Part shown: piece by piece, positions 365-22,338 of the stretch
How the letters are laid out: each line of letters begins with the position of its first letter
Position numbering within the stretch: position 1 is the stretch's first letter
UHGV virus genome: UHGV-0785299
Length of the DNA: 22,338 bases
Source of the DNA: a virus
Strand: one strand, 5' to 3'
Position numbers and translations under genes: made by a program
Notes under the pieces: model-generated
What the model saw: the letters and a program-made list of their open reading frames with translations, nothing else
Told to the model about the DNA's origin: nothing
Databases searched by the model: none

Positions 365-718
365 TTACGACAGCTGCTTCAGTTTGTAGATCGTCTGATA
401 GCACAGTGTCTTGATATCGTCAAGAGTGCTCTGAAGGTGGGAGTCACACTGCTTGTAGATACCATCGACGTCTATCACCACACTGTTAATATAGGAGATA
501 GGGTCTGGGTTGTACAATTTGATATTCTCGAATGATGGAACATACTGACCACCCGCACCGATGTATGCTTCGGTAAACGTGTCCAGCAAGTCCTCTAGAT
601 CCCCGTAGAACTCCCCGAGTGCCTTGTGCTTGGCATAGGACGTTGTAACGAAGTGCAAGGCATGAGAGTGGGCTATAGCAAGCAGTCCACGGTTGATGAA
701 AATACTCGCATTGACCAT
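365..718 (-). CDS. hypothetical protein (weak ferritin/Dps-like helical pattern)
   Basis: ORF 365..778; preferred start is the internal ATG at 718 (MVNASIFINRG...) which has a GAGGA RBS 8 nt upstream and clears the upstream terminator hairpin. Segment LLAIAHSHALHFVTTSYAKHKALGEFYGDLEDLLDTFTE loosely resembles Dps-type helices; very tentative. Confidence 0.5.
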   Translation of the reverse strand: MVNASIFINRGLLAIAHSHALHFVTTSYAKHKALGEFYGDLEDLLDTFTEAYIGAGGQYVPSFENIKLYNPDPISYINSVVIDVDGIYKQCDSHLQSTLDDIKTLCYQTIYKLKQLS

Positions 719-730
719 GATGTTGTCCTC

Positions 731-763
731 AGAAAAAGAAATCCCCCGGTATTTAAGGGGGAT
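731..763 (-). terminator. intrinsic terminator-like hairpin (7-bp stem ATCCCCC/GGGGGAT) followed on the minus strand by TTCTTTTTCT
   Basis: Perfect inverted repeat at 741-747/757-763 with a 9-nt loop; U-tract on the minus strand at 740-731; located just downstream of the stop of the 813..1382 gene. Confidence 0.5.
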
Positions 764-812
764 CCAGTTACAGACCAAGTTCTTTCGTCGTGGCGTCGTC
801 TAGTGCAACCTC

Positions 813-1382: not shown

Positions 1383-1407
1383 CTTAATCTCCTCGGGGAT
1401 TTCAGTT

Positions 1408-1415
1408 ATTTATAA
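1408..1415 (-). promoter_or_regulatory. T4-type late promoter box TATAAATA (reads on minus strand)
   Basis: Plus-strand TATTTATA at 1408-1415 is TATAAATA on the minus strand, about 26 nt upstream of the ATG at 1382; a gp55-like late sigma gene is present in the same window. Confidence 0.55.
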
Positions 1416-11859: not shown

Positions 11860-11867
11860 TATAAATA
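11860..11867 (+). promoter_or_regulatory. T4-type late promoter box TATAAATA (plus strand)
   Basis: Exact TATAAATA at 11860-11867, 35 nt upstream of ATG 11903 with AGAGGA RBS in between; directly abuts the RNase HI start codon on the opposite strand. Confidence 0.55.
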
Positions 11868-14917: not shown

Positions 14918-15357
14918 TCATATTTGCTCCGTTTGTTTCTCAACGCCCAGTGCGGCGGCATAGATACCACGAGCCATGCGATCATCACAAAATCCATACG
15001 TGAATAATCCAGCAATGGCATCAAGGCGTTCCTGTGTTGGTGTGACAGGCACAGACACCGTTTGAACTTCAGTCTTTTCGGTGCCTTCCGGTTTCATCAA
15101 GACCTCCATTTCTTGACGACTAACAACAATGGTTTCTACCTTATCTTCATCGATCAACATTTCGTTCAGAAGATCGTATCCCAACACTTGTGTATCGCCG
15201 ATATATGTCTTCGCGTTCAGTTGTGCTTCGATACTTAACACCCTCTGAGCTGTAAGGCCACCAGAGGAGAACGGTACTGGATAGAAGGCGGAACGCACTT
15301 GGGCACACCCATTTACGCTGTAACGAACCAGCAAGACATCACACCATACGCCAGCCA
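14918..15357 (-). CDS. hypothetical protein (146 aa)
   Basis: ORF 14918..15376; preferred start ATG 15357 (MAGVWCDV...) with GGAGGTG RBS 5 nt upstream, 2 nt after the stop of the upstream gene. Confidence 0.55.
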
Positions 15358-15359
15358 TA

Positions 15360-16022
15360 TTACACCTCCACCGCATGAGACTTCAGGAGTTCATCAATCT
15401 CTTTCTGCCCCATGTATGAGAACGGGGTGCGCTGGTAGAACGCCCAGAGTACTAACTGGACAACAGCACGGGAACGGGTTTCGGCCGTCATCACCAGGCC
15501 ACTGAAATGAGGAGACTCAGCTGTCCATTGTATCTCTTCGCCCAGGTCTTGATTACAGGTCACCGAGATGCGGAACTTGTTGCACAGATTGTCGACTTCT
15601 TTGTACGCATCGGTAGACACACGAAGTTGTTCCGCATGTGCCCACGGAGTTGTGACGATTCTTTCACCCAACGTCTTTTCTGAAACGAACCAATCAATAG
15701 ATTGGGTAAACTCGCTAAAATGGTCGATACGATAAATACAGTCTCCCCCTTCCATAGAACGCATGGCATGATAGCGAGCGTCAATTTCATTGTTGTGCAT
15801 AGCGTTGAAGTCGATGAACACGCGACGCGCCAGCACAACATCTTCTGGTTGAAGTGCCAGGAAATCGTTCAGGCGGCTATAATGGAGGATATTGGAACCG
15901 TCGTGGCCACGTGTGCAATATGCGTAATAGCTACCGATACGGGTGTGGGTAATATAAGACAACGGGGCGAAGAATAATCCGTCAGGATCAGGACCGACGA
16001 TAATAGAATAAAGTTTTTCCAT
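15360..16022 (-). CDS. hypothetical protein (220 aa)
   Basis: ORF 15360..16121; preferred start ATG 16022 (MEKLYSIIVGPD...) which avoids overlap with the upstream gene; start choice uncertain; no motif recognised. Confidence 0.5.
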   Translation of the reverse strand: MEKLYSIIVGPDPDGLFFAPLSYITHTRIGSYYAYCTRGHDGSNILHYSRLNDFLALQPEDVVLARRVFIDFNAMHNNEIDARYHAMRSMEGGDCIYRIDHFSEFTQSIDWFVSEKTLGERIVTTPWAHAEQLRVSTDAYKEVDNLCNKFRISVTCNQDLGEEIQWTAESPHFSGLVMTAETRSRAVVQLVLWAFYQRTPFSYMGQKEIDELLKSHAVEV

Positions 16023-16078
16023 GATATAGTCACTCAAATGAAAGGGCAGCTTTATGATAAGCCGCCCGAGGTTATTGA

Positions 16079-16945
16079 TTATTGGAAATCGCCAACATAC
16101 ATGTTCAGCTTGTCGTCCCAATTCAGAACGACACGGATCGTTCCAGTATCTTCTGGGAAGGTCAGTTTGTCACACATGGCGCGATTAACATAAGTCCCGC
16201 TCTGGTTGACGTTGTAGTCCTTGCCTTGCATGATACCAAAACGCTTGAAGTCGCGAGTGACCATCATGTTCAGAGTTGTCCAAGGGATTGTATCGCGCAG
16301 GGCTTTGCACAGGACGATCTTGCCATCCGACCTGAACGACACAAACAGCTCGTTGGCGACACGACGGCGAGTAGGCGGTTCAAGTTCACGCAGGGAAATG
16401 AATTGTGAATTCTTTACCTTTTCTGCCAGCGCCTGTACTTCTGCTGGATCCGGCTTGAACGGCTCCACTGAAGAGTCAGACTTCATCACAACGTCACCCT
16501 TGCGCTTCTCAACCAATTGCTCCACAGCCTTTTGACTCACGGGAGGGAGGTATTTGGACTTAGGAACAACCGCTGGCTTGATGACAGGGCTTGCATCTGG
16601 TTTCGCCTTTGGAGTACTCCGAGCCGCACGCAGCTTTTCCTGGGCTTGTAGAATGCGCTCTTGACGAGAAAGCGGAGCCTTTGGGGTGATCTTCGTACTG
16701 AAGTCAGAAACGCCGACCCAGTCACCCTGGTCGTTGCGCTTGGCGACCAGGGTCAGTTTGTGGATGATACCCTGAAGTTTGCTCTCACGTAAGTTGTCGG
16801 CATACCAGAACTTCGCGCCCATCTCGAACTTCTCGGCGAAGATCACGCGAGCGTCTTCGTGTACCAACATAACTTTGGCTGCGTTGGGGGCAAAAGCCTT
16901 ATTCTTTTCGATAATCGCCGCAGCGATTGTTTTGGTCAGGAGCAT
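16079..16945 (-). CDS. hypothetical protein (288 aa), basic Lys/Pro-rich central linker
   Basis: ORF 16079..16948 (GTG) with ATG at 16945; central low-complexity segment STPKAKPDASPVIKPAVVPKSKYLPPVSQK between two globular-looking halves. Confidence 0.6.
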   Translation of the reverse strand: MLLTKTIAAAIIEKNKAFAPNAAKVMLVHEDARVIFAEKFEMGAKFWYADNLRESKLQGIIHKLTLVAKRNDQGDWVGVSDFSTKITPKAPLSRQERILQAQEKLRAARSTPKAKPDASPVIKPAVVPKSKYLPPVSQKAVEQLVEKRKGDVVMKSDSSVEPFKPDPAEVQALAEKVKNSQFISLRELEPPTRRRVANELFVSFRSDGKIVLCKALRDTIPWTTLNMMVTRDFKRFGIMQGKDYNVNQSGTYVNRAMCDKLTFPEDTGTIRVVLNWDDKLNMYVGDFQ

Positions 16946-16984
16946 CACAGTGTATTCCTTCAGTTCACAATGTAGGGCTAAATT

Positions 16985-17311
16985 TTAACCCGAAACTTTA
17001 TTTTGAAATCCGACAAAGTCCTGGGCAATCCCCCGACAATACATCAGGTCTTTCTTCGTTTGTGGACTGTTATCAGCCGCAGTCAGCATCATGGGAAGAT
17101 CCAGCGCATTCTCTATCTGATCAACACTGAACAGATCAAGGCGCTTCAGCTCCCCCTCGAAGTCGGACAGGAGGATAGATGTGTCTTTGTCATCTGGGTG
17201 GAACTGCTGATACGTCTCCATCCATGCCACACATGTGTTCAGTTTGGACGGTGGCGCGGCGTTTACACACCCGGCTATCAGTACCAACAAGAGCAGGATT
17301 TTACATTTCAT
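16985..17311 (-). CDS. lipoprotein (candidate superinfection-exclusion or envelope protein)
   Basis: MKCKILLLLVLIAGCVNAAPP: signal peptide ending in a lipobox (LIAGC); ATG 17311 overlaps the stop of the upstream gene (TGATG). Confidence 0.65.
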   Translation of the reverse strand: MKCKILLLLVLIAGCVNAAPPSKLNTCVAWMETYQQFHPDDKDTSILLSDFEGELKRLDLFSVDQIENALDLPMMLTAADNSPQTKKDLMYCRGIAQDFVGFQNKVSG

Positions 17312-17997
17312 CACTCGTTCTCCTTCATCATATTGTCGCAGTCAACACGAGTCTGCTGGAGTTCGCGCGACATGCGGGGATCATCAAGGTTCACGCTCAG
17401 ATTCGTGGCCAGGTCTTTCAGACCGTTCTGAACACGATCCTCAAAATAATAATCGTTCTCAACCAGCCAGGCTCTGAGACCAAGAGCGCGGGTGCGCCAT
17501 TCCTTCTTCAGGACGCGATCAGAGGTCTGCGTGGCGCTGTATTCGAATACTTTGACGCACTGGTTGCCATCGTTGATGAGGTTCAGGTGGCGGCGACCAA
17601 CCTGCACACCCTTCTGTAATGCCGGAGAAGGGAGCGAACGGCACTGTCTGACTGTCATTCGGCCTTGGGTGCCCATTCGGCCAGTCATGATTAAATCGCC
17701 AGCCTCCATGCCTCCACGGTTAAATTCGTCGTCATTGAGGTAGCCTTTGAGGTTATAGGCTCCCTGTTTGTAACGGTTGAACTCAATTCCGGCATTGACG
17801 ACAGCAGTGGAGACGTTGCCTGTGTTCCAGAGTTCAGCGAAGTTCTCTATGGAACCAGACTTGTCGATGGCAACCGCCTGGGAGAACCCAGCACAATAGG
17901 AAAGGTCGGACCACAGTTTATCACCTGTGGAGTTCAGCTTGGCAGCGGCGGGTAATGCCAGACCAGCCAGCACAACCCCGAGGATTAAACGTTTCAT
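17311..17997 (-). CDS. secreted hypothetical protein (228 aa)
   Basis: ORF 17311..18162; preferred start ATG 17997 (MKRLILGVVLAGLALPAAA...) gives a typical cleavable signal peptide; GGAGAA RBS upstream. Confidence 0.6.
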   Translation of the reverse strand: MKRLILGVVLAGLALPAAAKLNSTGDKLWSDLSYCAGFSQAVAIDKSGSIENFAELWNTGNVSTAVVNAGIEFNRYKQGAYNLKGYLNDDEFNRGGMEAGDLIMTGRMGTQGRMTVRQCRSLPSPALQKGVQVGRRHLNLINDGNQCVKVFEYSATQTSDRVLKKEWRTRALGLRAWLVENDYYFEDRVQNGLKDLATNLSVNLDDPRMSRELQQTRVDCDNMMKENE

Positions 17998-18076
17998 GGC
18001 GATTCTCCTTATTTCATTGGATGAAATGATAGGCGGCTCACCATGTTGAGTAAAGGGATTCAATAAACTATCGTAT

Positions 18077-18526
18077 TCAGAAACGGGTATCACTGACCGT
18101 TCTGTATCGCACACCCTGAAACTGTTTAGCGAGTTTAACAAATTCCATCGCTGGCAAATCAACTTTGTAGACCTTCATGCGCTGTTTGCCGTCCATGTTC
18201 AACGCAGCGACAAATCGGTGAGAACCGTCAACAACGTAATTGTCAGAAGACACCCAAACTCGACCCATAGGTTTCTTATTTCTGATCTGCTTCATAATCT
18301 TCCAGACCTTCATTTTATTGATTTCGTTCTGGGTAAGACGAAGCATTTTGATGGGCACTTGCACAGCATCTATGGACACGCCGTTGTCTTCAAGATATTT
18401 GTGAAAATCTTCTTGTTTGTCGGCATCGATTTGCGGCATAGAAGAACGAGAAAGCCCGAGGTTCCCAACAGGAATCCTCAGGCCGTTAATGATGTTCAAC
18501 CAGTCAATAAAAGATGTAAGGAACAT
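18077..18526 (-). CDS. hypothetical protein, possible ParB/Srx-like nuclease fold
   Basis: 149 aa; VVDGSHRFVAA resembles the DGxHR core of ParB N-terminal-domain nucleases; otherwise unassigned. Confidence 0.5.
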   Translation of the reverse strand: MFLTSFIDWLNIINGLRIPVGNLGLSRSSMPQIDADKQEDFHKYLEDNGVSIDAVQVPIKMLRLTQNEINKMKVWKIMKQIRNKKPMGRVWVSSDNYVVDGSHRFVAALNMDGKQRMKVYKVDLPAMEFVKLAKQFQGVRYRTVSDTRF

Positions 18527-18558
18527 GACACACCTCGGGATATAGGGTTATCCCTTAG

Positions 18559-18750
18559 TTAGCGCATCCATCGATCCTTTCTCTCTTTCTCCTTGCGTTC
18601 GCGACGTTTCTGATCGGATCGGAATAACCAATAGAAGAAGTTCCCACCCAAGATGAAAACCACCGCGATTATTACTAGGACACCCTTCACAATTTCCCAA
18701 ACCAATTCTTTATCCAAATTATACCTCGTCTTCTTCAGGTCCACCGTCAA
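18559..18750 (-). CDS. small membrane protein (one TM helix, basic C-tail)
   Basis: 63 aa; hydrophobic stretch VKGVLVIIAVVFILGGNFFYWLF followed by KRRERKEKERKDRWMR; start may be later than 18750 because it overlaps the upstream ORF. Confidence 0.45.
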   Translation of the reverse strand: MTVDLKKTRYNLDKELVWEIVKGVLVIIAVVFILGGNFFYWLFRSDQKRRERKEKERKDRWMR

Positions 18751-19006
18751 TCAGGATACGAGCGGTGTCGAAAGTTTCCCCGCCCGTGTTCAACAGCTTG
18801 GTTAGATCATCAAGAGTACCGACAGGACCAAGATCAGCCTGGCGGAGAACGAACTCGAGAAGCCCGTAGAGCGCTGATTGGAATCGGCTGTTGTCGATAT
18901 CGTTCTTTATTACCATCAGGCGTAAGATGTTCTCTGACTGAGTATGGCCAACACACGCCTTGTCTCTGATCATCTCCTTGATAGAACTTCTCTCGGATGG
19001 TGTCAT
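18719..19006 (-). CDS. hypothetical protein or C-terminal continuation of the 18834..19376 gene after a frameshift
   Basis: 95-aa ORF that overlaps the 3-prime 172 nt of the 18834..19376 ORF in another frame; its translation looks more protein-like than the Arg/Pro/Ser-rich tail of the other frame. Confidence 0.4.
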   Translation of the reverse strand: MTPSERSSIKEMIRDKACVGHTQSENILRLMVIKNDIDNSRFQSALYGLLEFVLRQADLGPVGTLDDLTKLLNTGGETFDTARILIDGGPEEDEV

Positions 19007-19376
19007 AAGTACCCCCGACAGAGATCAAGAACTCTTCTTGCATGGTCTTGACCGGGTGGTGGTTGCGGGTTTCGAACATGAAGCCCCAGCCACCGTCGGC
19101 GACGTTGCCAAAGGTCTTGACGCCAAAGGACTTCGTCCCGTTGGAGCAGGAATAGATGTCCAGGACGTATGGGCTACCCTGATTGTCGATCCCACGATTC
19201 ACGTCGTCTGATACGCAGCGCTCAATCATCTTCCCGTTCTTATACAGAACGAGGTCTTGGCCATACGCCTTGAAAGCATAAACACCGTTGGTAGACACTC
19301 CGGTGATGACAGGAGGGGCGGAAACAGCAGCAAAGGAAGCGCCCAGCAGGGCAACAGCGAGGATTAACTTTTTCAT
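18834..19376 (-). CDS. secreted hypothetical protein (possible frameshifted gene)
   Basis: ATG 19376 gives signal peptide MKKLILAVALLGASFAAVSAPP, similar in style to the 17997 gene; C-terminal about 50 aa (…GVCWPYSVREHLTPDGNKERYRQQPIPISALRASRVRSPPG) looks out-of-frame. Confidence 0.5.
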   Translation of the reverse strand: MKKLILAVALLGASFAAVSAPPVITGVSTNGVYAFKAYGQDLVLYKNGKMIERCVSDDVNRGIDNQGSPYVLDIYSCSNGTKSFGVKTFGNVADGGWGFMFETRNHHPVKTMQEEFLISVGGTYDTIREKFYQGDDQRQGVCWPYSVREHLTPDGNKERYRQQPIPISALRASRVRSPPG

Positions 19377-19400
19377 GATATAGTCTCTTGGTTTCAAATG

Positions 19401-19422
19401 GGCGGGGTATGATTACCCCGCC
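19401..19422 (-). terminator. GC-rich hairpin (GGCGGGG/CCCCGCC) between two minus-strand genes
   Basis: Perfect 7-bp inverted repeat with 8-nt loop; only moderate T-richness flanking, so could be a terminator or an RNA structural element. Confidence 0.4.
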
Positions 19423-19428
19423 GTGGGT

Positions 19429-19935
19429 TTATAGGGTAACAAGTGATACGGTAAAAACCATCGTCCCGTCTGTTGCCATTTTTCTTGAAACTGGTATGAC
19501 GCGAGGCTGGCAGAATATCCATTCTTTCTCCATGGACGCCAAGTCCAGCATATCCATTTCTGATTCATCGCCTTTGTTCACAAATTTTTCTAGAGAACCA
19601 TAGACATTAAGCCCCTCCGGGATTCTGTTTCGATGTTTGTAACAAATGCGGGCAACAGCTTGGGTTCCGTACGATTTAGAAAATTTTTTGGCCACATGCT
19701 TCAGTTCACTGAAGCTAAGGCAAGAATCCCATGTCTGGAACATGTCGCCTCGTTCAAACATCATCCCTAAACGCGCAACGTCCTCTTTAGGCAACCCGCG
19801 ATAAAGTGTGGTCGTCTGTGGTTCGCGCAATTCTTGCACCAGATCACGGACGGCAGGGGAAACAGTACCGGGGCGCATGATGTGGGACTTATCATGGACG
19901 AGGTAAAATAAATCTTGAATTTGTTGATCGGTCAT
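19429..19935 (-). CDS. hypothetical protein (168 aa); speculative ADP-ribosyltransferase-like R / S-x-S / E-x-E pattern
   Basis: ORF 19429..20070; preferred start ATG 19935 (MTDQQIQDLF...). TLYRG, DSCLSFS and EKEW occur in the order expected for R-S-EXE toxins, but spacing is atypical. Confidence 0.45.
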   Translation of the reverse strand: MTDQQIQDLFYLVHDKSHIMRPGTVSPAVRDLVQELREPQTTTLYRGLPKEDVARLGMMFERGDMFQTWDSCLSFSELKHVAKKFSKSYGTQAVARICYKHRNRIPEGLNVYGSLEKFVNKGDESEMDMLDLASMEKEWIFCQPRVIPVSRKMATDGTMVFTVSLVTL

Positions 19936-19954
19936 GGTATAGTTCCTGCCTTCC

Positions 19955-20194
19955 TTGGTGAAGCCAGAAGACACTGTGAGCGTTCTGTATTTCTCCTCCA
20001 AAGGCGACTTTGGTACTGTGTTCGCTGGCCGCCAGATCAATGCAGCATCCGACCTGAGCGAAATCAACAAACTGATCGACCGTTTCCTGCAACCATCCGG
20101 CTGTACTGGTTTCGTTGAGCCATTGAAACTGGCGATGGATACTGCTCGTGGCCTGAGAAGCCTGGCTACGTCACAACCTGGCGTTCATGACTGA
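19955..20194 (+). pseudogene. fragment of a vWA-domain gene (frame-disrupted)
   Basis: TTG-initiated ORF encoding VSVLYFSS...GCTGFVEPLKLAMDTARGL...QPGV, which looks like the central strands and helices of a von Willebrand A domain; the expected next motif (FMTDGYDN) is encoded immediately downstream but in another frame (20184-20207), and frame-2 stops occur at 20192 and 20201. Confidence 0.45.
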
Positions 20195-20317
20195 CGGGTA
20201 TGACAACTGCTGGCGTACCACGAAATTCTACTGGTTGCTGAGACCCTGCCATTTGCTTTCGATAACATTACTTTCATCGAATATGGCTGGTACTGTAACC
20301 GAGAACTGCTGGCGCAG

Positions 20318-21487
20318 ATGGCCGAACTCTCTGGTGCTACTCACGTGTTTGCCGAAGGTCAGACCGAATACCAGACCGAACTGGAAAACGTGCTGAAGTC
20401 ATCAGTGCCGAAGGTGGTTGTTGATGTGCCTCTGCTATACACCCACGCCATCTATGTTGAAAACGGCGTAGCAACTGTTCTGGCGGTACAGCCGGATGAA
20501 GACCATCCTATCGGCCACGTGAGCATCCCTGAGAGCGTCACCAAGCTGTGGGTTGTAAACCCTAACATGATCGACCAGATGGATAGCCTGACGGACATCC
20601 AGGCGGCATATGTGCTGGCGTTCTACGGTGTACACACTATGGACGCAGATCTGGTTTGGGCTGCGCTGAAGAAGACGGGCGACGTTCGCTTCATCAAACA
20701 GTACAGCAACTGCTTCACCAAGCAGGACTACTCCAACATCAAGAACGATCTGGTACAGGCGATTGTTGACGACCAGCTGCGCGGCGTTGACGGTATTGAC
20801 TATGACCTGGTTCCAGCTGAAGATGCGACCACCGTCGTTGATGTGCTGACGTACCTGGCTGAAGCTGGTGTGCCTGTTGCTACCAAGCATCCGATGTTCT
20901 CCTACAAGAGCATCGGGCGCGGTACTGTGCAGAAAACCGACGACACCGAAGACAAGCTGGCAGAACAGATCGCGAATGCTCAGTCCAAAGAAGAGCGTAA
21001 AGCCCTGGCTCTCAAGCTGGCAGAGCACGAAGAGTGGAACCCGACGTTCGAACCTACCAACGATCTGGGTGTTGTGCCAATCAGTGATTTGGTCTATAAC
21101 TCCGAGCGCCCGAACATCAGTGTGCGTACAATTCAACACGGTACTGTGGCTGTGCCTGAATTCGCACAGAAGAAGTTTGGCCTGCCTGAAGAACTGGATA
21201 CTTTCCAGTGGCGCAACTACACCATCGTCAAAGACGGTATCATTAACGTGAAGACTCTGCCGTTCAAGGCTGATATCGAAGTCGTGCATAAGCTGATCGA
21301 AATGGGCGTCCACGTGTTTGGTGGTCCAGAAGTGTTTGTCCTGAACCTGGAAAGCGTACCGCTGGTCAACCGCGCCATGGTCAAGAACATCAGTGCTGCT
21401 CAGTTCTTTGCGGATAATGTCCGTCTGGAAGCCCTGAAAAGGCAAGCAGAAGGTGCTGAAGTTCTATCGAGACGCCCTGGTTGGTAA
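20318..21487 (+). CDS. central part of the vWA-domain protein (open frame actually extends upstream to 20204)
   Basis: 389-aa ORF in the same frame as the 19955 fragment; protein-like translation continues upstream of the first ATG back to 20204; ends 5 codons after an A4 run where a +1 shift joins it to the next ORF. Confidence 0.6.
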   Translation: MAELSGATHVFAEGQTEYQTELENVLKSSVPKVVVDVPLLYTHAIYVENGVATVLAVQPDEDHPIGHVSIPESVTKLWVVNPNMIDQMDSLTDIQAAYVLAFYGVHTMDADLVWAALKKTGDVRFIKQYSNCFTKQDYSNIKNDLVQAIVDDQLRGVDGIDYDLVPAEDATTVVDVLTYLAEAGVPVATKHPMFSYKSIGRGTVQKTDDTEDKLAEQIANAQSKEERKALALKLAEHEEWNPTFEPTNDLGVVPISDLVYNSERPNISVRTIQHGTVAVPEFAQKKFGLPEELDTFQWRNYTIVKDGIINVKTLPFKADIEVVHKLIEMGVHVFGGPEVFVLNLESVPLVNRAMVKNISAAQFFADNVRLEALKRQAEGAEVLSRRPGW

Positions 21488-22058
21488 GGGTAACGCCAAA
21501 GGCCTGGCAGTACAGTACGGCGCTGAGGCGGCCGAGTTCCTGTCCTCCTACGGCATCCGCGATTACGGCTTCTCACCGAAGACTGAGACCAAAGAGTCTA
21601 CCGACTTCTACATGAGCCGTGAGCTGAACGTGAAGATCGCCGGGGCGTCTTCACTACCGAGCATCGCGGCAGTACAGAAGAAGATCGCAGAGAACAAGAA
21701 ACTCAATGCTGGTGACTTGTTCATCGCCAATGCTCTGAAAGAGTACGAAGCATTCGTGAAGTCTCCTATGATCACTGCCGTGCCTGAAGCCTTACAGAAA
21801 CAGCTGATCGAAAACTGGATCGACGCTGCTGCCAAGGCGGCCATCACCGAAGTCCGTGCCCTGAACAAGACACTGTCTAAAGTGGTGTATGGTATCGTTG
21901 CTGGCCACGGCTGGTTCACCGACCTCGACCTGGAAGAGTCCACCATGGAAGTTGAAGTGGATGGCGTGAAGTACAAGGTCACTGCCGAACTGACAGAGAA
22001 AGAAAATCAAAATCTAATCCAACGGGCGGGGCAACCCGCCTTTCTTTGGGAGAAGTAG
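21453..22058 (+). CDS. C-terminal part of the same protein (reached by a +1 shift at 21437-21440)
   Basis: GTG-initiated ORF; skipping one A of the AAAA run at 21437-21440 fuses ...NVRLEALK to GKQKVLKFYRDALVGKGNAKG... without a stop; last codons overlap a terminator hairpin. Confidence 0.55.
   Translation: MLKFYRDALVGKGNAKGLAVQYGAEAAEFLSSYGIRDYGFSPKTETKESTDFYMSRELNVKIAGASSLPSIAAVQKKIAENKKLNAGDLFIANALKEYEAFVKSPMITAVPEALQKQLIENWIDAAAKAAITEVRALNKTLSKVVYGIVAGHGWFTDLDLEESTMEVEVDGVKYKVTAELTEKENQNLIQRAGQPAFLWEK
22025..22047 (+). terminator. intrinsic terminator (GGCGGG/CCCGCC stem, GCAA tetraloop, TTTCTTT tract)
   Basis: Perfect 6-bp GC stem 22025-22030/22035-22040 with GNRA-type loop followed by a T-rich run; overlaps the last codons of the upstream ORF and precedes the RBS GGGAGAAG of the next gene. 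Confidence 0.55.
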
Positions 22059-22059
22059 C

Positions 22060-22338
22060 ATGAGCAGTAAACCAACATATGTTGAAGTCATGCGTCATCT
22101 GGCTCAGTACGCCACTGACAATCTGAATATGGATCTGTGGCGTGACGATGACAAGCGCAAATTGCTGGACGACGTGGCATCTCAGAACGAGGACGCCCTG
22201 GACAAGCTGGCTGGTCTCCGTACCAAGAAAGACCTCGGCGGTGACGAACTGGATGCCATCGAAATCGTAATGGAACTAGAAGAAGAGTTTCAGGTCGAAA
22301 TCGACGACGGTTGGCTGGGTAGTAAAGGTGATGACCCG
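22060..22338 (+). CDS. acyl-carrier-protein-like protein with Glu at the expected phosphopantetheine-attachment Ser position (C-terminus runs off the window)
   Basis: ATG 22060 with GGGAGAAG RBS; hand translation ...KKDLGGDELDAIEIVMELEEEFQVEIDDG closely parallels the ACP core [27 protein letters not shown] (recalled from memory), with the attachment Ser replaced by Glu. Confidence 0.6.
   Translation, partial: MSSKPTYVEVMRHLAQYATDNLNMDLWRDDDKRKLLDDVASQNEDALDKLAGLRTKKDLGGDELDAIEIVMELEEEFQVEIDDGWLGSKGDDP

What the first reader, a model, noticed from the sequence alone, without database searches (positions are those of the whole stretch)
16985..19376. Cluster of exported proteins: lipoprotein, two signal-peptide proteins and a small membrane protein
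Within about 2.4 kb there is a lipobox lipoprotein (16985-17311), two proteins with very similar MK(R/K)LIL...A signal peptides (17311-17997, 18834-19376) and a single-TM protein with a basic tail (18559-18750). Phage-encoded lipoproteins and periplasmic proteins commonly mediate superinfection exclusion or receptor masking, and this block sits in a region without conserved core genes.
Basis: partly seen in the sequence, partly recalled or inferred. Interest (0 to 1): 0.5.

Follow-up and report, generated by a model that had tools for sequence, protein, structure and literature searches.

The report
Phage periplasmic protein pair, not spanins
In this Vi1-like (Ackermannviridae) phage the exported-protein cluster is real, but its conserved core is two secreted periplasmic proteins that databases call membrane-fusing 'spanins' without showing the defining features, so their role, perhaps control of superinfection or lysis timing, is still open.

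Summary
The window is an Agtrevirus/Kuttervirus-like Ackermannviridae phage, 97-99% identical to fGh-Ecl02, ZQ1 and AV101. All genes of the finding lie on the minus strand.

The lipoprotein (A, 16985-17311), the 228-aa signal-peptide protein (B, 17311-17997) and the small single-pass protein (D) are really there. The second signal-peptide ORF (F) is over-extended. A 1-nt deletion at 19008 removes its stop, so the last 57 codons are out-of-frame read-through over a missed gene (E, 18719-19006).

B and A are a translationally coupled pair present in about 270-280 Ackermannviridae genomes. Kongari 2018, UniProt and PHROGs label them i-/o-spanin. That label fails its own criteria:
- the lipobox occurs only in the window's clade (7 of 41 sequences);
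- every B lineage has a 10-16-residue hydrophobic core followed by an AxA cleavage site;
- both proteins model as compact, Cys-paired helical bundles with no structural relatives;
- B is more conserved than the neighbouring helicase.

F and D are patchy accessory genes.

The best reading is a conserved soluble periplasmic pair, possibly acting in superinfection exclusion or lysis inhibition. That function is inferred, not shown. Clustering of exported genes is only marginally above chance (p about 0.03-0.06).

The parts
16985..17311 (-). A: 108-aa exported protein. In this clade it is a predicted outer-membrane lipoprotein (lipobox IAGC, Cys15, +2 Val). The mature part is a Cys27/Cys92 helical bundle. 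Databases call it O-spanin / Rz-like spanin (phrog_3843).
17311..17997 (-). B: 228-aa Sec-signal protein (MKR-LILGVVLAGLAL-PAAA|K). The mature domain is a compact all-alpha fold with 4 conserved Cys. Databases call it I-spanin (phrog_4260). Its stop overlaps the start of A by 1 nt.
18077..18526 (-). C: 149-aa cytoplasmic ParB-N-like protein (DGSHR motif). It sits directly upstream of B in every Ackermannviridae lineage examined that carries the B-A pair. It also occurs without B/A in Vibrio phage K474, and homologues are found in Aeromonas phages. It is not exported.
18559..18717 (-). D: 52-aa single-pass membrane protein (TTG start with GAGGT SD) and a strongly basic C-tail. Predicted N-out/C-in. 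Accessory gene found in 59 phage records.
18719..19006 (-). E: 95-aa acidic cytoplasmic protein (phrog_4458).
19008..19376 (-). F, conserved part: 123 codons of a 124-125-aa Sec-signal protein (MKKLILAVALLGASFAAVSA-PP) with 2 conserved Cys (phrog_5474). Accessory gene found in 105 records. Pro at +1 of the VSA site makes cleavage there doubtful; SFA|AV is an alternative site.
18834..19007 (-). Out-of-frame read-through tail of F, created by a 1-nt deletion at 19008. It is not part of the conserved protein and overlaps gene E.

Best explanation
The block is a co-directional stretch of an Ackermannviridae replication-gene region. It mixes one conserved unit with unrelated accessory genes.

The conserved unit is B->A. 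The two genes are translationally coupled. Both products are exported by Sec, both most likely lose an ordinary signal peptide, and both fold in the oxidising periplasm into compact helical bundles, probably stabilised by disulfides between the conserved Cys. In the window's clade alone, A has gained a lipobox and is probably tethered to the inner face of the outer membrane. They are not spanins.

Inferred mechanism: the pair acts in the periplasm on a target that is conserved across the enterobacterial members of the family. That target could be a component of the phage's own entry or lysis machinery, or a conserved envelope structure. The most likely role is part of the superinfection response, meaning exclusion or resistance to lysis from without (as T4 Spackle/Imm do) and/or the lysis inhibition reported for CBA120 (as T4 RI does).

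F (a periplasmic or inner-membrane-anchored protein) and D (a small N-out/C-in membrane protein) are patchy accessory envelope proteins with independent histories. C and E are cytoplasmic.

Shown: gene structure, conservation, signal features, predicted folds, and the failure of the spanin criteria. Inferred: actual export and processing, complex formation, and the superinfection or lysis-timing role.
For: Pair and coupling. A 1- or 4-nt stop/start overlap of B and A is kept in the window, Marshall, Bue1, Kevin and two metagenomic lineages whose B is only 33-37% identical.

Export.
- B hydrophobic cores are 10-16 residues (median 12) in 17 sequences. Each is followed by AxA-type sites: AAA|K, AHA|G, TSA|W, ASA|A, ANA|G, VHA|R.
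- A's N-termini are hypervariable in length and sequence, yet all join the same mature start (A)PPSKLNxC.AW.
- B has 4 conserved Cys and A has 2.

Not spanins.
- The lipobox is present in only 7 of 41 A sequences, all close to the window. It is absent in Bue1, Kevin, L015 and L016.
- B models as a compact 11-helix domain (pLDDT 83.5, pTM 0.72). A models as a helical bundle (pLDDT 83.5, pTM 0.71).
- Kongari's own tables give the Marshall i-spanin 0 coiled coils, 35% helix and a 206-aa periplasmic domain, and give the o-spanin 56% helix.

Conservation. Against Kuttervirus and Klebsiella phages respectively, B is 88-90% and 84-86% identical, the adjacent helicase 83-84.5% and 82%, and A 70-73% and 66%.

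Context. There is no T4-type late promoter near the cluster. The genes sit among replication genes, as T4 sp and imm do.

Link to the open question. CBA120 shows T4-like lysis inhibition with no holin or antiholin identified (PMC3184105). The pharokka-annotated relative lists no holin, rI, imm or sp. A, B and F are three of about six Sec-signal proteins in that genome.
Against: There is no positive functional evidence.
- No sequence or fold similarity to T4 Sp, RI or T was found.
- There were no significant hits for A, B or F in Pfam, NCBIfam, PADLOC or PDB.
- Signal-peptide calls are rule-based; SignalP, LipoP and DeepTMHMM could not be run.
- Some A homologues have 17-22-residue hydrophobic cores that could act as membrane anchors.
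- B is more conserved than exclusion proteins usually are, in my judgement.
- No expression timing data were found. The TATAAATA motif occurs only 4 times in the relative genome, against about 5 expected by chance, so its absence near the cluster is weak evidence.
- No canonical spanin pair was found elsewhere in a complete relative genome, so some lysis role for B/A cannot be excluded.
Confidence: 0.35

Rival explanations
1. B and A are a non-canonical two-component spanin, as annotated in Marshall, Kongari 2018, UniProt and PHROG 3843. B would span from the inner membrane, A would sit in the outer membrane, and the two would fuse the membranes at the last step of lysis.
For: - The gene order and overlap are typical of 'separated' spanins.
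- In the window's clade A has an excellent lipobox with an outer-membrane-type +2 residue.
- Both products are periplasm-directed.
- A genome-wide lipobox scan of a complete relative found no alternative i-/o-spanin pair.
- The endolysin lacks a signal peptide, so a full holin and spanin apparatus is expected somewhere in the genome.
Against: - The lipobox is missing in 34 of 41 family sequences, including every lineage outside the window's clade.
- B has a 10-16-residue h-region plus AxA in every lineage, which indicates a cleaved signal rather than a transmembrane domain.
- B is a compact globular bundle with no coiled coil, and A is a folded helical bundle rather than a Pro-rich coil.
- B is far more conserved than I would expect for spanins.
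- Short B forms of 126-165 aa occur in Miltonvirus and Nezavisimistyvirus.
- The originating laboratory later said no spanin could be reliably identified in a Vi01-like phage.
Confidence: 0.12
2. B/A target the host rather than phage functions. They would be a periplasmic inhibitor or modulator of a conserved enterobacterial envelope component, for example a peptidoglycan hydrolase, a protease, an O-antigen or capsule assembly step, or an envelope-acting defence system. In this reading they are host-takeover or anti-defence effectors.
For: - The mature domain of B is highly conserved across phages of Salmonella, Escherichia, Klebsiella, Dickeya and Serratia, which fits a conserved host target.
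- B/A are absent from a Vibrio relative that keeps the flanking genes C and helicase, which suggests adaptation to an Enterobacterales-specific target.
- A alternates between soluble and lipoprotein forms, which recalls the PliC/MliC lysozyme inhibitors (from memory; not tested).
Against: - No homology to any known inhibitor or defence-related family was found.
- No target can be named from the data.
Confidence: 0.2
3. All four exported or membrane proteins (A, B, D, F) form one co-functional envelope module, as the first reader's 'cluster' implies.
For: - They are co-directional with short or overlapping intergenic distances.
- Marshall's annotators placed no terminator between the ACP gene and the DNA-binding-protein gene.
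- Three of about six Sec-signal proteins of the genome lie here (permutation p about 0.03).
Against: - The phyletic patterns differ widely: A in 282 records, B in 271, F in 105, D in 59.
- Cytoplasmic genes C and E are interleaved with them.
- Bue1 and Kevin keep C-B-A and were not among the tblastn hits for D or F.
- Marshall's F carries a 23-codon internal deletion.
- The clustering statistic is marginal and counts the coupled B/A pair twice.
Confidence: 0.08

Closest known systems
Two-component spanins (lambda Rz/Rz1; T4 PseT.3/PseT.2 'separated' type)
   Same: Two adjacent, overlapping genes whose products both go to the periplasm. In this clade the second product carries a lipobox. The pair is filed under this name in Kongari 2018, UniProt and PHROG 3843.
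   Different: The first protein has a cleavable-type signal instead of a transmembrane domain, and it is globular rather than coiled-coil. The second is a folded helical bundle and is not a lipoprotein in most of the family. B is very highly conserved. The pair is not near the endolysin.
T4 Spackle (Sp), periplasmic inhibitor of the gp5 tail lysozyme (superinfection exclusion)
   Same: Like A, it is a small signal-peptide protein with one Cys near each end of the mature chain, and it is encoded among replication genes. Ackermannviridae also carry a gp5-like hub with a lysozyme domain.
T4 RI antiholin / T holin periplasmic pair (lysis inhibition)
   Same: A roughly 100-aa periplasmic protein with a variable N-terminal hydrophobic signal, together with a roughly 220-aa protein that has a large periplasmic domain. 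The related phage CBA120 shows lysis inhibition without identified components.
T5 Llp / Cor-type phage lipoproteins that block outer-membrane receptors
   Same: In this clade A is a small phage-encoded outer-membrane lipoprotein.
   Different: The lipid anchor is not conserved in the family. Ackermannviridae adsorb through tailspikes to O-antigen or capsule, not to a known outer-membrane protein. There is no homology.

Membership tests
Two-component spanin | The i-spanin has an N-terminal transmembrane domain that anchors it in the inner membrane (type II topology). | tested here: not met
   The B hydrophobic core is 10-16 residues (median 12) in 17 sequences. In every lineage it is followed by an AxA-type SPase-I site. 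This is a rule-based call; SignalP was not available.
Two-component spanin | The periplasmic domain of the i-spanin is an extended alpha-helical coiled coil. | tested here: not met
   The AlphaFold2 model is a compact bundle of 11 helices (pLDDT 83.5, pTM 0.72). Kongari's supplement lists 0 coiled-coil segments and 35% helix for the Marshall homologue.
Two-component spanin | The o-spanin is an outer-membrane lipoprotein (lipobox Cys, no Lol-avoidance signal). | tested here: not met
   Met in the window itself (IAGC, +2 Val). However, only 7 of 41 family sequences have a lipobox. Kuttervirus s.s., Klebsiella, Dickeya, Serratia and Erwinia phage homologues and two metagenomic lineages have plain signal peptides.
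Two-component spanin | The mature o-spanin is short, proline-rich and largely unstructured. | tested here: not met
   Mature A is about 90 aa and is predicted to be a helical bundle, with pLDDT above 90 over most of the domain. Kongari's table gives 56% helix.
Two-component spanin | The genes are adjacent, overlapping or embedded, in the order i then o. | tested here: met
   B's stop overlaps A's start by 1 nt. The same arrangement holds in all lineages examined.
Two-component spanin | The C-termini of i- and o-spanin bind each other, and loss of either blocks outer-membrane disruption. | not testable with these tools
   This needs genetics or biochemistry, or a multimer prediction, which was not available.
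T4 Spackle-like superinfection exclusion protein | Sequence or fold homology to Sp. | tested here: not met
T4 Spackle-like superinfection exclusion protein | Secreted small periplasmic protein that binds and inhibits the tail-hub lysozyme. | not testable with these tools
   The secreted, small and Cys-paired features are met by sequence. Binding to the gp5-like lysozyme was not tested.
T4 RI/T lysis-inhibition pair | Homology to RI (antiholin) or T (holin). | tested here: not met
Phage receptor-blocking lipoprotein (T5 Llp / Cor type) | A conserved lipid-anchored outer-membrane protein. | tested here: not met
   The lipobox is confined to the window's clade.

The most novel reading that the evidence does not exclude
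B/A are the missing periplasmic arm of the T4-like lysis inhibition and superinfection response seen in ViI-like phages (CBA120). This would be an antiholin or sensor pair built from two previously undescribed folds, evolved independently of T4 RI/T and Spackle. Its identification would also expose where the still-unknown holin of Ackermannviridae lies.
Probability: 0.12. Interest if true: 0.7.

Novelty: new variant of a known kind. Interest (0 to 1): 0.4.

Why it matters
The names 'I-spanin', 'O-spanin' and 'Rz-like spanin' are attached to this pair in UniProt, RefSeq and PHROGs across the roughly 280 Ackermannviridae records that carry it. Many of these phages are being developed for biocontrol or therapy. 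If the label is wrong, two things follow. The family has no identified spanin or holin. And its most conserved secreted proteins are unexplained: B is restricted to the family, B and A have no detectable structural relatives, and B is kept more strictly than a replicative helicase.

ViI-like phages show lysis inhibition whose components have been unknown since 2011. A 2024 review of the family contains none of the words lysis, endolysin, superinfection or periplasm. The pair therefore gives a concrete, testable candidate for that open question.

Tried and rejected
Sequence searches of A, B and F found no significant match in Pfam, NCBIfam, PADLOC or PDB, using single sequences and profiles.

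A word-indexed search of 5.8 billion proteins and an exhaustive HMMER search of 1.84 billion representatives found only family members. B has 10 representatives.

Profile comparisons with T4 Sp, RI and T were all negative.

The idea that C (ParB-N-like) is functionally tied to B/A was rejected, because Vibrio phage K474 keeps C next to the helicase without B/A.

The idea that the T4 rI.-1 homologue at window 365-778 marks an RI-like neighbour was rejected, because the adjacent 189-aa protein has no signal peptide.

The late-promoter argument is weak. TATAAATA occurs only 4 times in a 152-kb relative against about 5 expected, and the sigma-70 and terminator scans are at chance level.

My first greedy gene-caller missed D and F, so it was replaced by an SD-filtered scan.

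Searches for Ackermannviridae transcriptomics or functional work on these genes found nothing.

Full report
**Identity of the window.** Megablast of 16900-19500 finds 275 phage records, all Ackermannviridae-type. The best are Enterobacter phage fGh-Ecl02 (98.8%), E. coli phages ZQ1 (98.1%) and AV101 (97.2%), then Salmonella phages Maynard and Marshall (about 92%) and Shigella phage Ag3. Every gene of the finding is on the minus strand. It lies in a co-directional run from an acyl-carrier-protein gene to an HU-like DNA-binding protein and a DNA helicase.

**Checking the observation.**
- A (16985-17311) starts with ATG preceded by AAGGAG. It reads MKCKILLLLVLIAG|CVNAAPPSK, with lipobox IAGC and Val at +2, so by the +2 rule it would be sorted to the outer membrane.
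- B (17311-17997) reads MKR-LILGVVLAGLAL-PAAA|KLNS. Its TGA shares one base with A's ATG.
- D has a 20-residue hydrophobic core and a tail with net charge about +6. The TTG at 18717 has a GAGGT Shine-Dalgarno sequence and is the start annotated in Marshall, fGh-Ecl02 and PC3.
- F starts at 19376 as stated, but its end is an artefact of a frameshift. fGh-Ecl02, PC3 and Marshall read ...GGTACGTTATGA, where the stop overlaps the next ATG.
- PHROG 5474 covers only residues 1-123 of F. The 180-aa product is absent from a 15-billion-sequence collection, although the exact A, B and D sequences occur on 105, 53 and 25 contigs.
- The same part of the window carries five more single-base indels that fragment the VWA gene, plus an inversion junction. 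The deletion is therefore probably a sequence error or a private mutation.

**Is the clustering more than chance?** I used the complete relative vB_CECAV_050 (194 genes). From my own scans I judged about 17 genes to encode membrane or exported proteins and about 6 to carry Sec-type signals. Four such genes in six consecutive genes gives a permutation p of about 0.06. Three of the six Sec-signal proteins in six genes gives p of about 0.03. That is marginal, and B/A are one coupled unit.

**The cluster is not one unit.** tblastn finds A in 282 phage records, B in 271, F in 105 and D in 59. F occurs mainly in Escherichia, Shigella, Dickeya and Klebsiella phages and in only 15 of about 164 Salmonella records. 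C, the cytoplasmic ParB-N-like gene between D and B, occurs in 432 records including Vibrio and Aeromonas phages. In Vibrio phage K474, C is followed directly by the helicase. B/A and everything downstream is therefore an insertion specific to enterobacterial Ackermannviridae. The stretch between A and the HU gene varies by genus: it carries Band_7 lipoprotein and P22 GP17-type sie genes in Bue1, Kevin and L015, and DUF7425 and other unknowns in the window. The constant element is C-B-A.

**The existing label.** Marshall's depositors annotated the B and A homologues as i-spanin and o-spanin. Kongari et al. 2018 list them as a 'separated' two-component spanin (PMC6139136 supplements). UniProt and RefSeq propagate 'I-spanin', 'O-spanin' and 'Rz-like spanin', and PHROG 3843 carries the name. 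Kongari's own tables already show an outlier. The periplasmic domain is 206 aa, against about 80-100 for most entries shown in that excerpt. It is 35% helical with no coiled coil, and the o-spanin is 56% helical. [quoted passage not shown]

**Comparative test of the spanin reading.**
- Among 41 A-family sequences the lipobox is present in 7, all at least 96% identical to the window.
- A 93%-identical relative has Ser in place of the lipid-acceptor Cys (P0045).
- All other lineages have ordinary signal peptides ending VYA|AP, VHA|AP, AQA|AP, ALA|VP, ASA|QP, VLA|TP or ARA|DE. These lineages are Kuttervirus proper, the Klebsiella, Dickeya, Serratia and Erwinia phages, and two metagenomic lineages whose B is only 33-37% identical.
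- The signal region varies freely in length and sequence, while the mature protein starts uniformly at (A)PPSKLNxC.AW and keeps two invariant Cys.
- Even in the window, VNA|APPS is a legal SPase-I site that would give the family's usual mature end.
- B has a hydrophobic core of 10-16 residues (median 12) in 17 sequences. In each of six divergent lineages an Ala sits at -1 and a small residue at -3, exactly at the hydrophobic/polar boundary. That is the signature of a cleaved signal peptide, not of a membrane anchor.
- B keeps four conserved Cys. The short forms in Kevin and Bue1 keep the first and last.

A protein pair that is soluble in the periplasm in most of the family cannot bridge and fuse the two membranes.

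**Conservation.** The table gives percent identity to the window protein.

| Protein | vs Kuttervirus | vs Klebsiella phages |
|---|---|---|
| B | 88-90 | 84-86 |
| Helicase (3 kb away) | 83-84.5 | 82 |
| A | 70-73 | 66 |
| F | mostly absent | about 51 |

B is thus under purifying selection at least as strong as a core replication enzyme. That argues for a conserved binding partner and against a fast-evolving moron.

**Lysis context.** In the complete relative the endolysin is a PG_binding plus muramidase protein without a signal peptide. It lies about 3 kb beyond the window's left end, with no membrane protein beside it. No holin, rI, imm or sp is annotated anywhere in that genome. A genome-wide lipobox scan finds, besides A, only a 113-aa lipoprotein next to the DNA polymerase gene and a 216-aa conserved lipoprotein. 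Neither is preceded by an i-spanin-like gene. The spanin reading therefore cannot be dismissed by pointing to a better candidate. It fails on its own criteria instead. T4-type late promoters (TATAAATA) occur at 1407-1414(-) and 11860-11867(+) in the window but not near the cluster. The motif is rare genome-wide, so this carries little weight.

**What it most likely does.** Kutter et al. 2011 showed that CBA120, a Kuttervirus, has T4-like lysis inhibition at high multiplicity, and that no holin or antiholin could be found (PMC3184105). A 2024 review of the family contains none of the words lysis, endolysin, superinfection or periplasm. In T4, exclusion (Imm, Sp) and lysis inhibition (RI acting on the periplasmic domain of T) both depend on small secreted or membrane proteins, and sp and imm lie among the replication genes. 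B/A are the only family-wide conserved, predicted soluble periplasmic proteins I could find. I therefore commit, at modest confidence, to a periplasmic superinfection-response role, meaning exclusion, resistance to lysis from without, and/or lysis-inhibition sensing. The pair would probably act as a complex. In this clade A would be relocated to the outer-membrane face by a newly gained lipid anchor. Export, processing, complex formation and function are all inferred. The rivals are a non-canonical spanin, a host-directed inhibitor or anti-defence effector, and a single four-gene module.

**Verdict.** The useful result is negative and specific: the widespread 'spanin' label for this pair is not supported. 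What remains is a conserved, structurally novel periplasmic pair that is a concrete candidate for the unexplained superinfection and lysis-timing biology of Vi1-like phages.

Noticed in passing
window 19945-22338: This segment is inverted relative to fGh-Ecl02, vB_CECAV_050 and other close relatives, with the junction at 19945-19949, just upstream of gene G. The VWA-domain gene therefore lies on the + strand. It is broken into at least 4 ORFs by single-base indels at 20156, 20173 and 20220 (deletions) and at 21440 and 22006 (insertions). This could be a misassembly with indel errors or a real rearrangement.
   Followed up: partly
window 19008: A single-base deletion removes the stop codon of F. 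The resulting 180-aa protein is not in a 15-billion-protein collection, although the window's exact A, B and D sequences are.
   Followed up: yes
window 18077-18526: ParB-N-like protein (DGSHR motif, phrog_2859). It is conserved in 432 phage records, including Vibrio and Aeromonas phages. It is annotated 'unknown structural protein' in Dickeya phage LIMEstone1 and 'cytidyltransferase' elsewhere.
   Followed up: partly
window 19429-19935: A 168-aa protein matching the C-terminal part of the Alt-like RNA polymerase ADP-ribosyltransferase family (phrog_832, E 1e-14). It lies directly upstream of the exported-protein genes.
   Followed up: no
window 1407-1414 (-) and 11860-11867 (+): These are the only two T4-type late-promoter motifs (TATAAATA) in the window. 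The first lies about 25 nt upstream of the start of 813-1382. In vB_CECAV_050 the second motif's counterpart lies about 40 nt upstream of a virion structural gene. The motif occurs only 4 times in that 152-kb relative.
   Followed up: partly
window 365-778: This gene corresponds in position to a vB_CECAV_050 gene annotated 'starvation-inducible transcriptional regulator', the same product name that T4 rI.-1 carries; the homology itself was not tested. In T4, rI.-1 sits next to the antiholin gene rI. Here the upstream neighbour (813-1382, 189 aa) has no signal peptide.
   Followed up: partly
window 14918-16948, compared with L005, L006 and L015: The island between A and the HU-like gene differs by genus. 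The window has 289-aa, 220-aa and DUF7425 proteins. Bue1, Kevin and a metagenomic relative carry an SPFH/Band_7 protein (annotated lipoprotein in Bue1) and/or a P22 GP17-type superinfection-exclusion gene at the same place.
   Followed up: partly
GenBank OR844945.1 (hit H150): A 7.9-kb record named 'Enterococcus phage Efm 3-10' encodes a protein 97% identical to window protein C. This is most likely a mislabelled or contaminant sequence.
   Followed up: no
L001 (Salmonella phage Marshall) 5110-5418: Marshall's F homologue carries an in-frame internal deletion of 23 codons relative to the window and its close relatives. This fits F being dispensable or rapidly changing.
   Followed up: no
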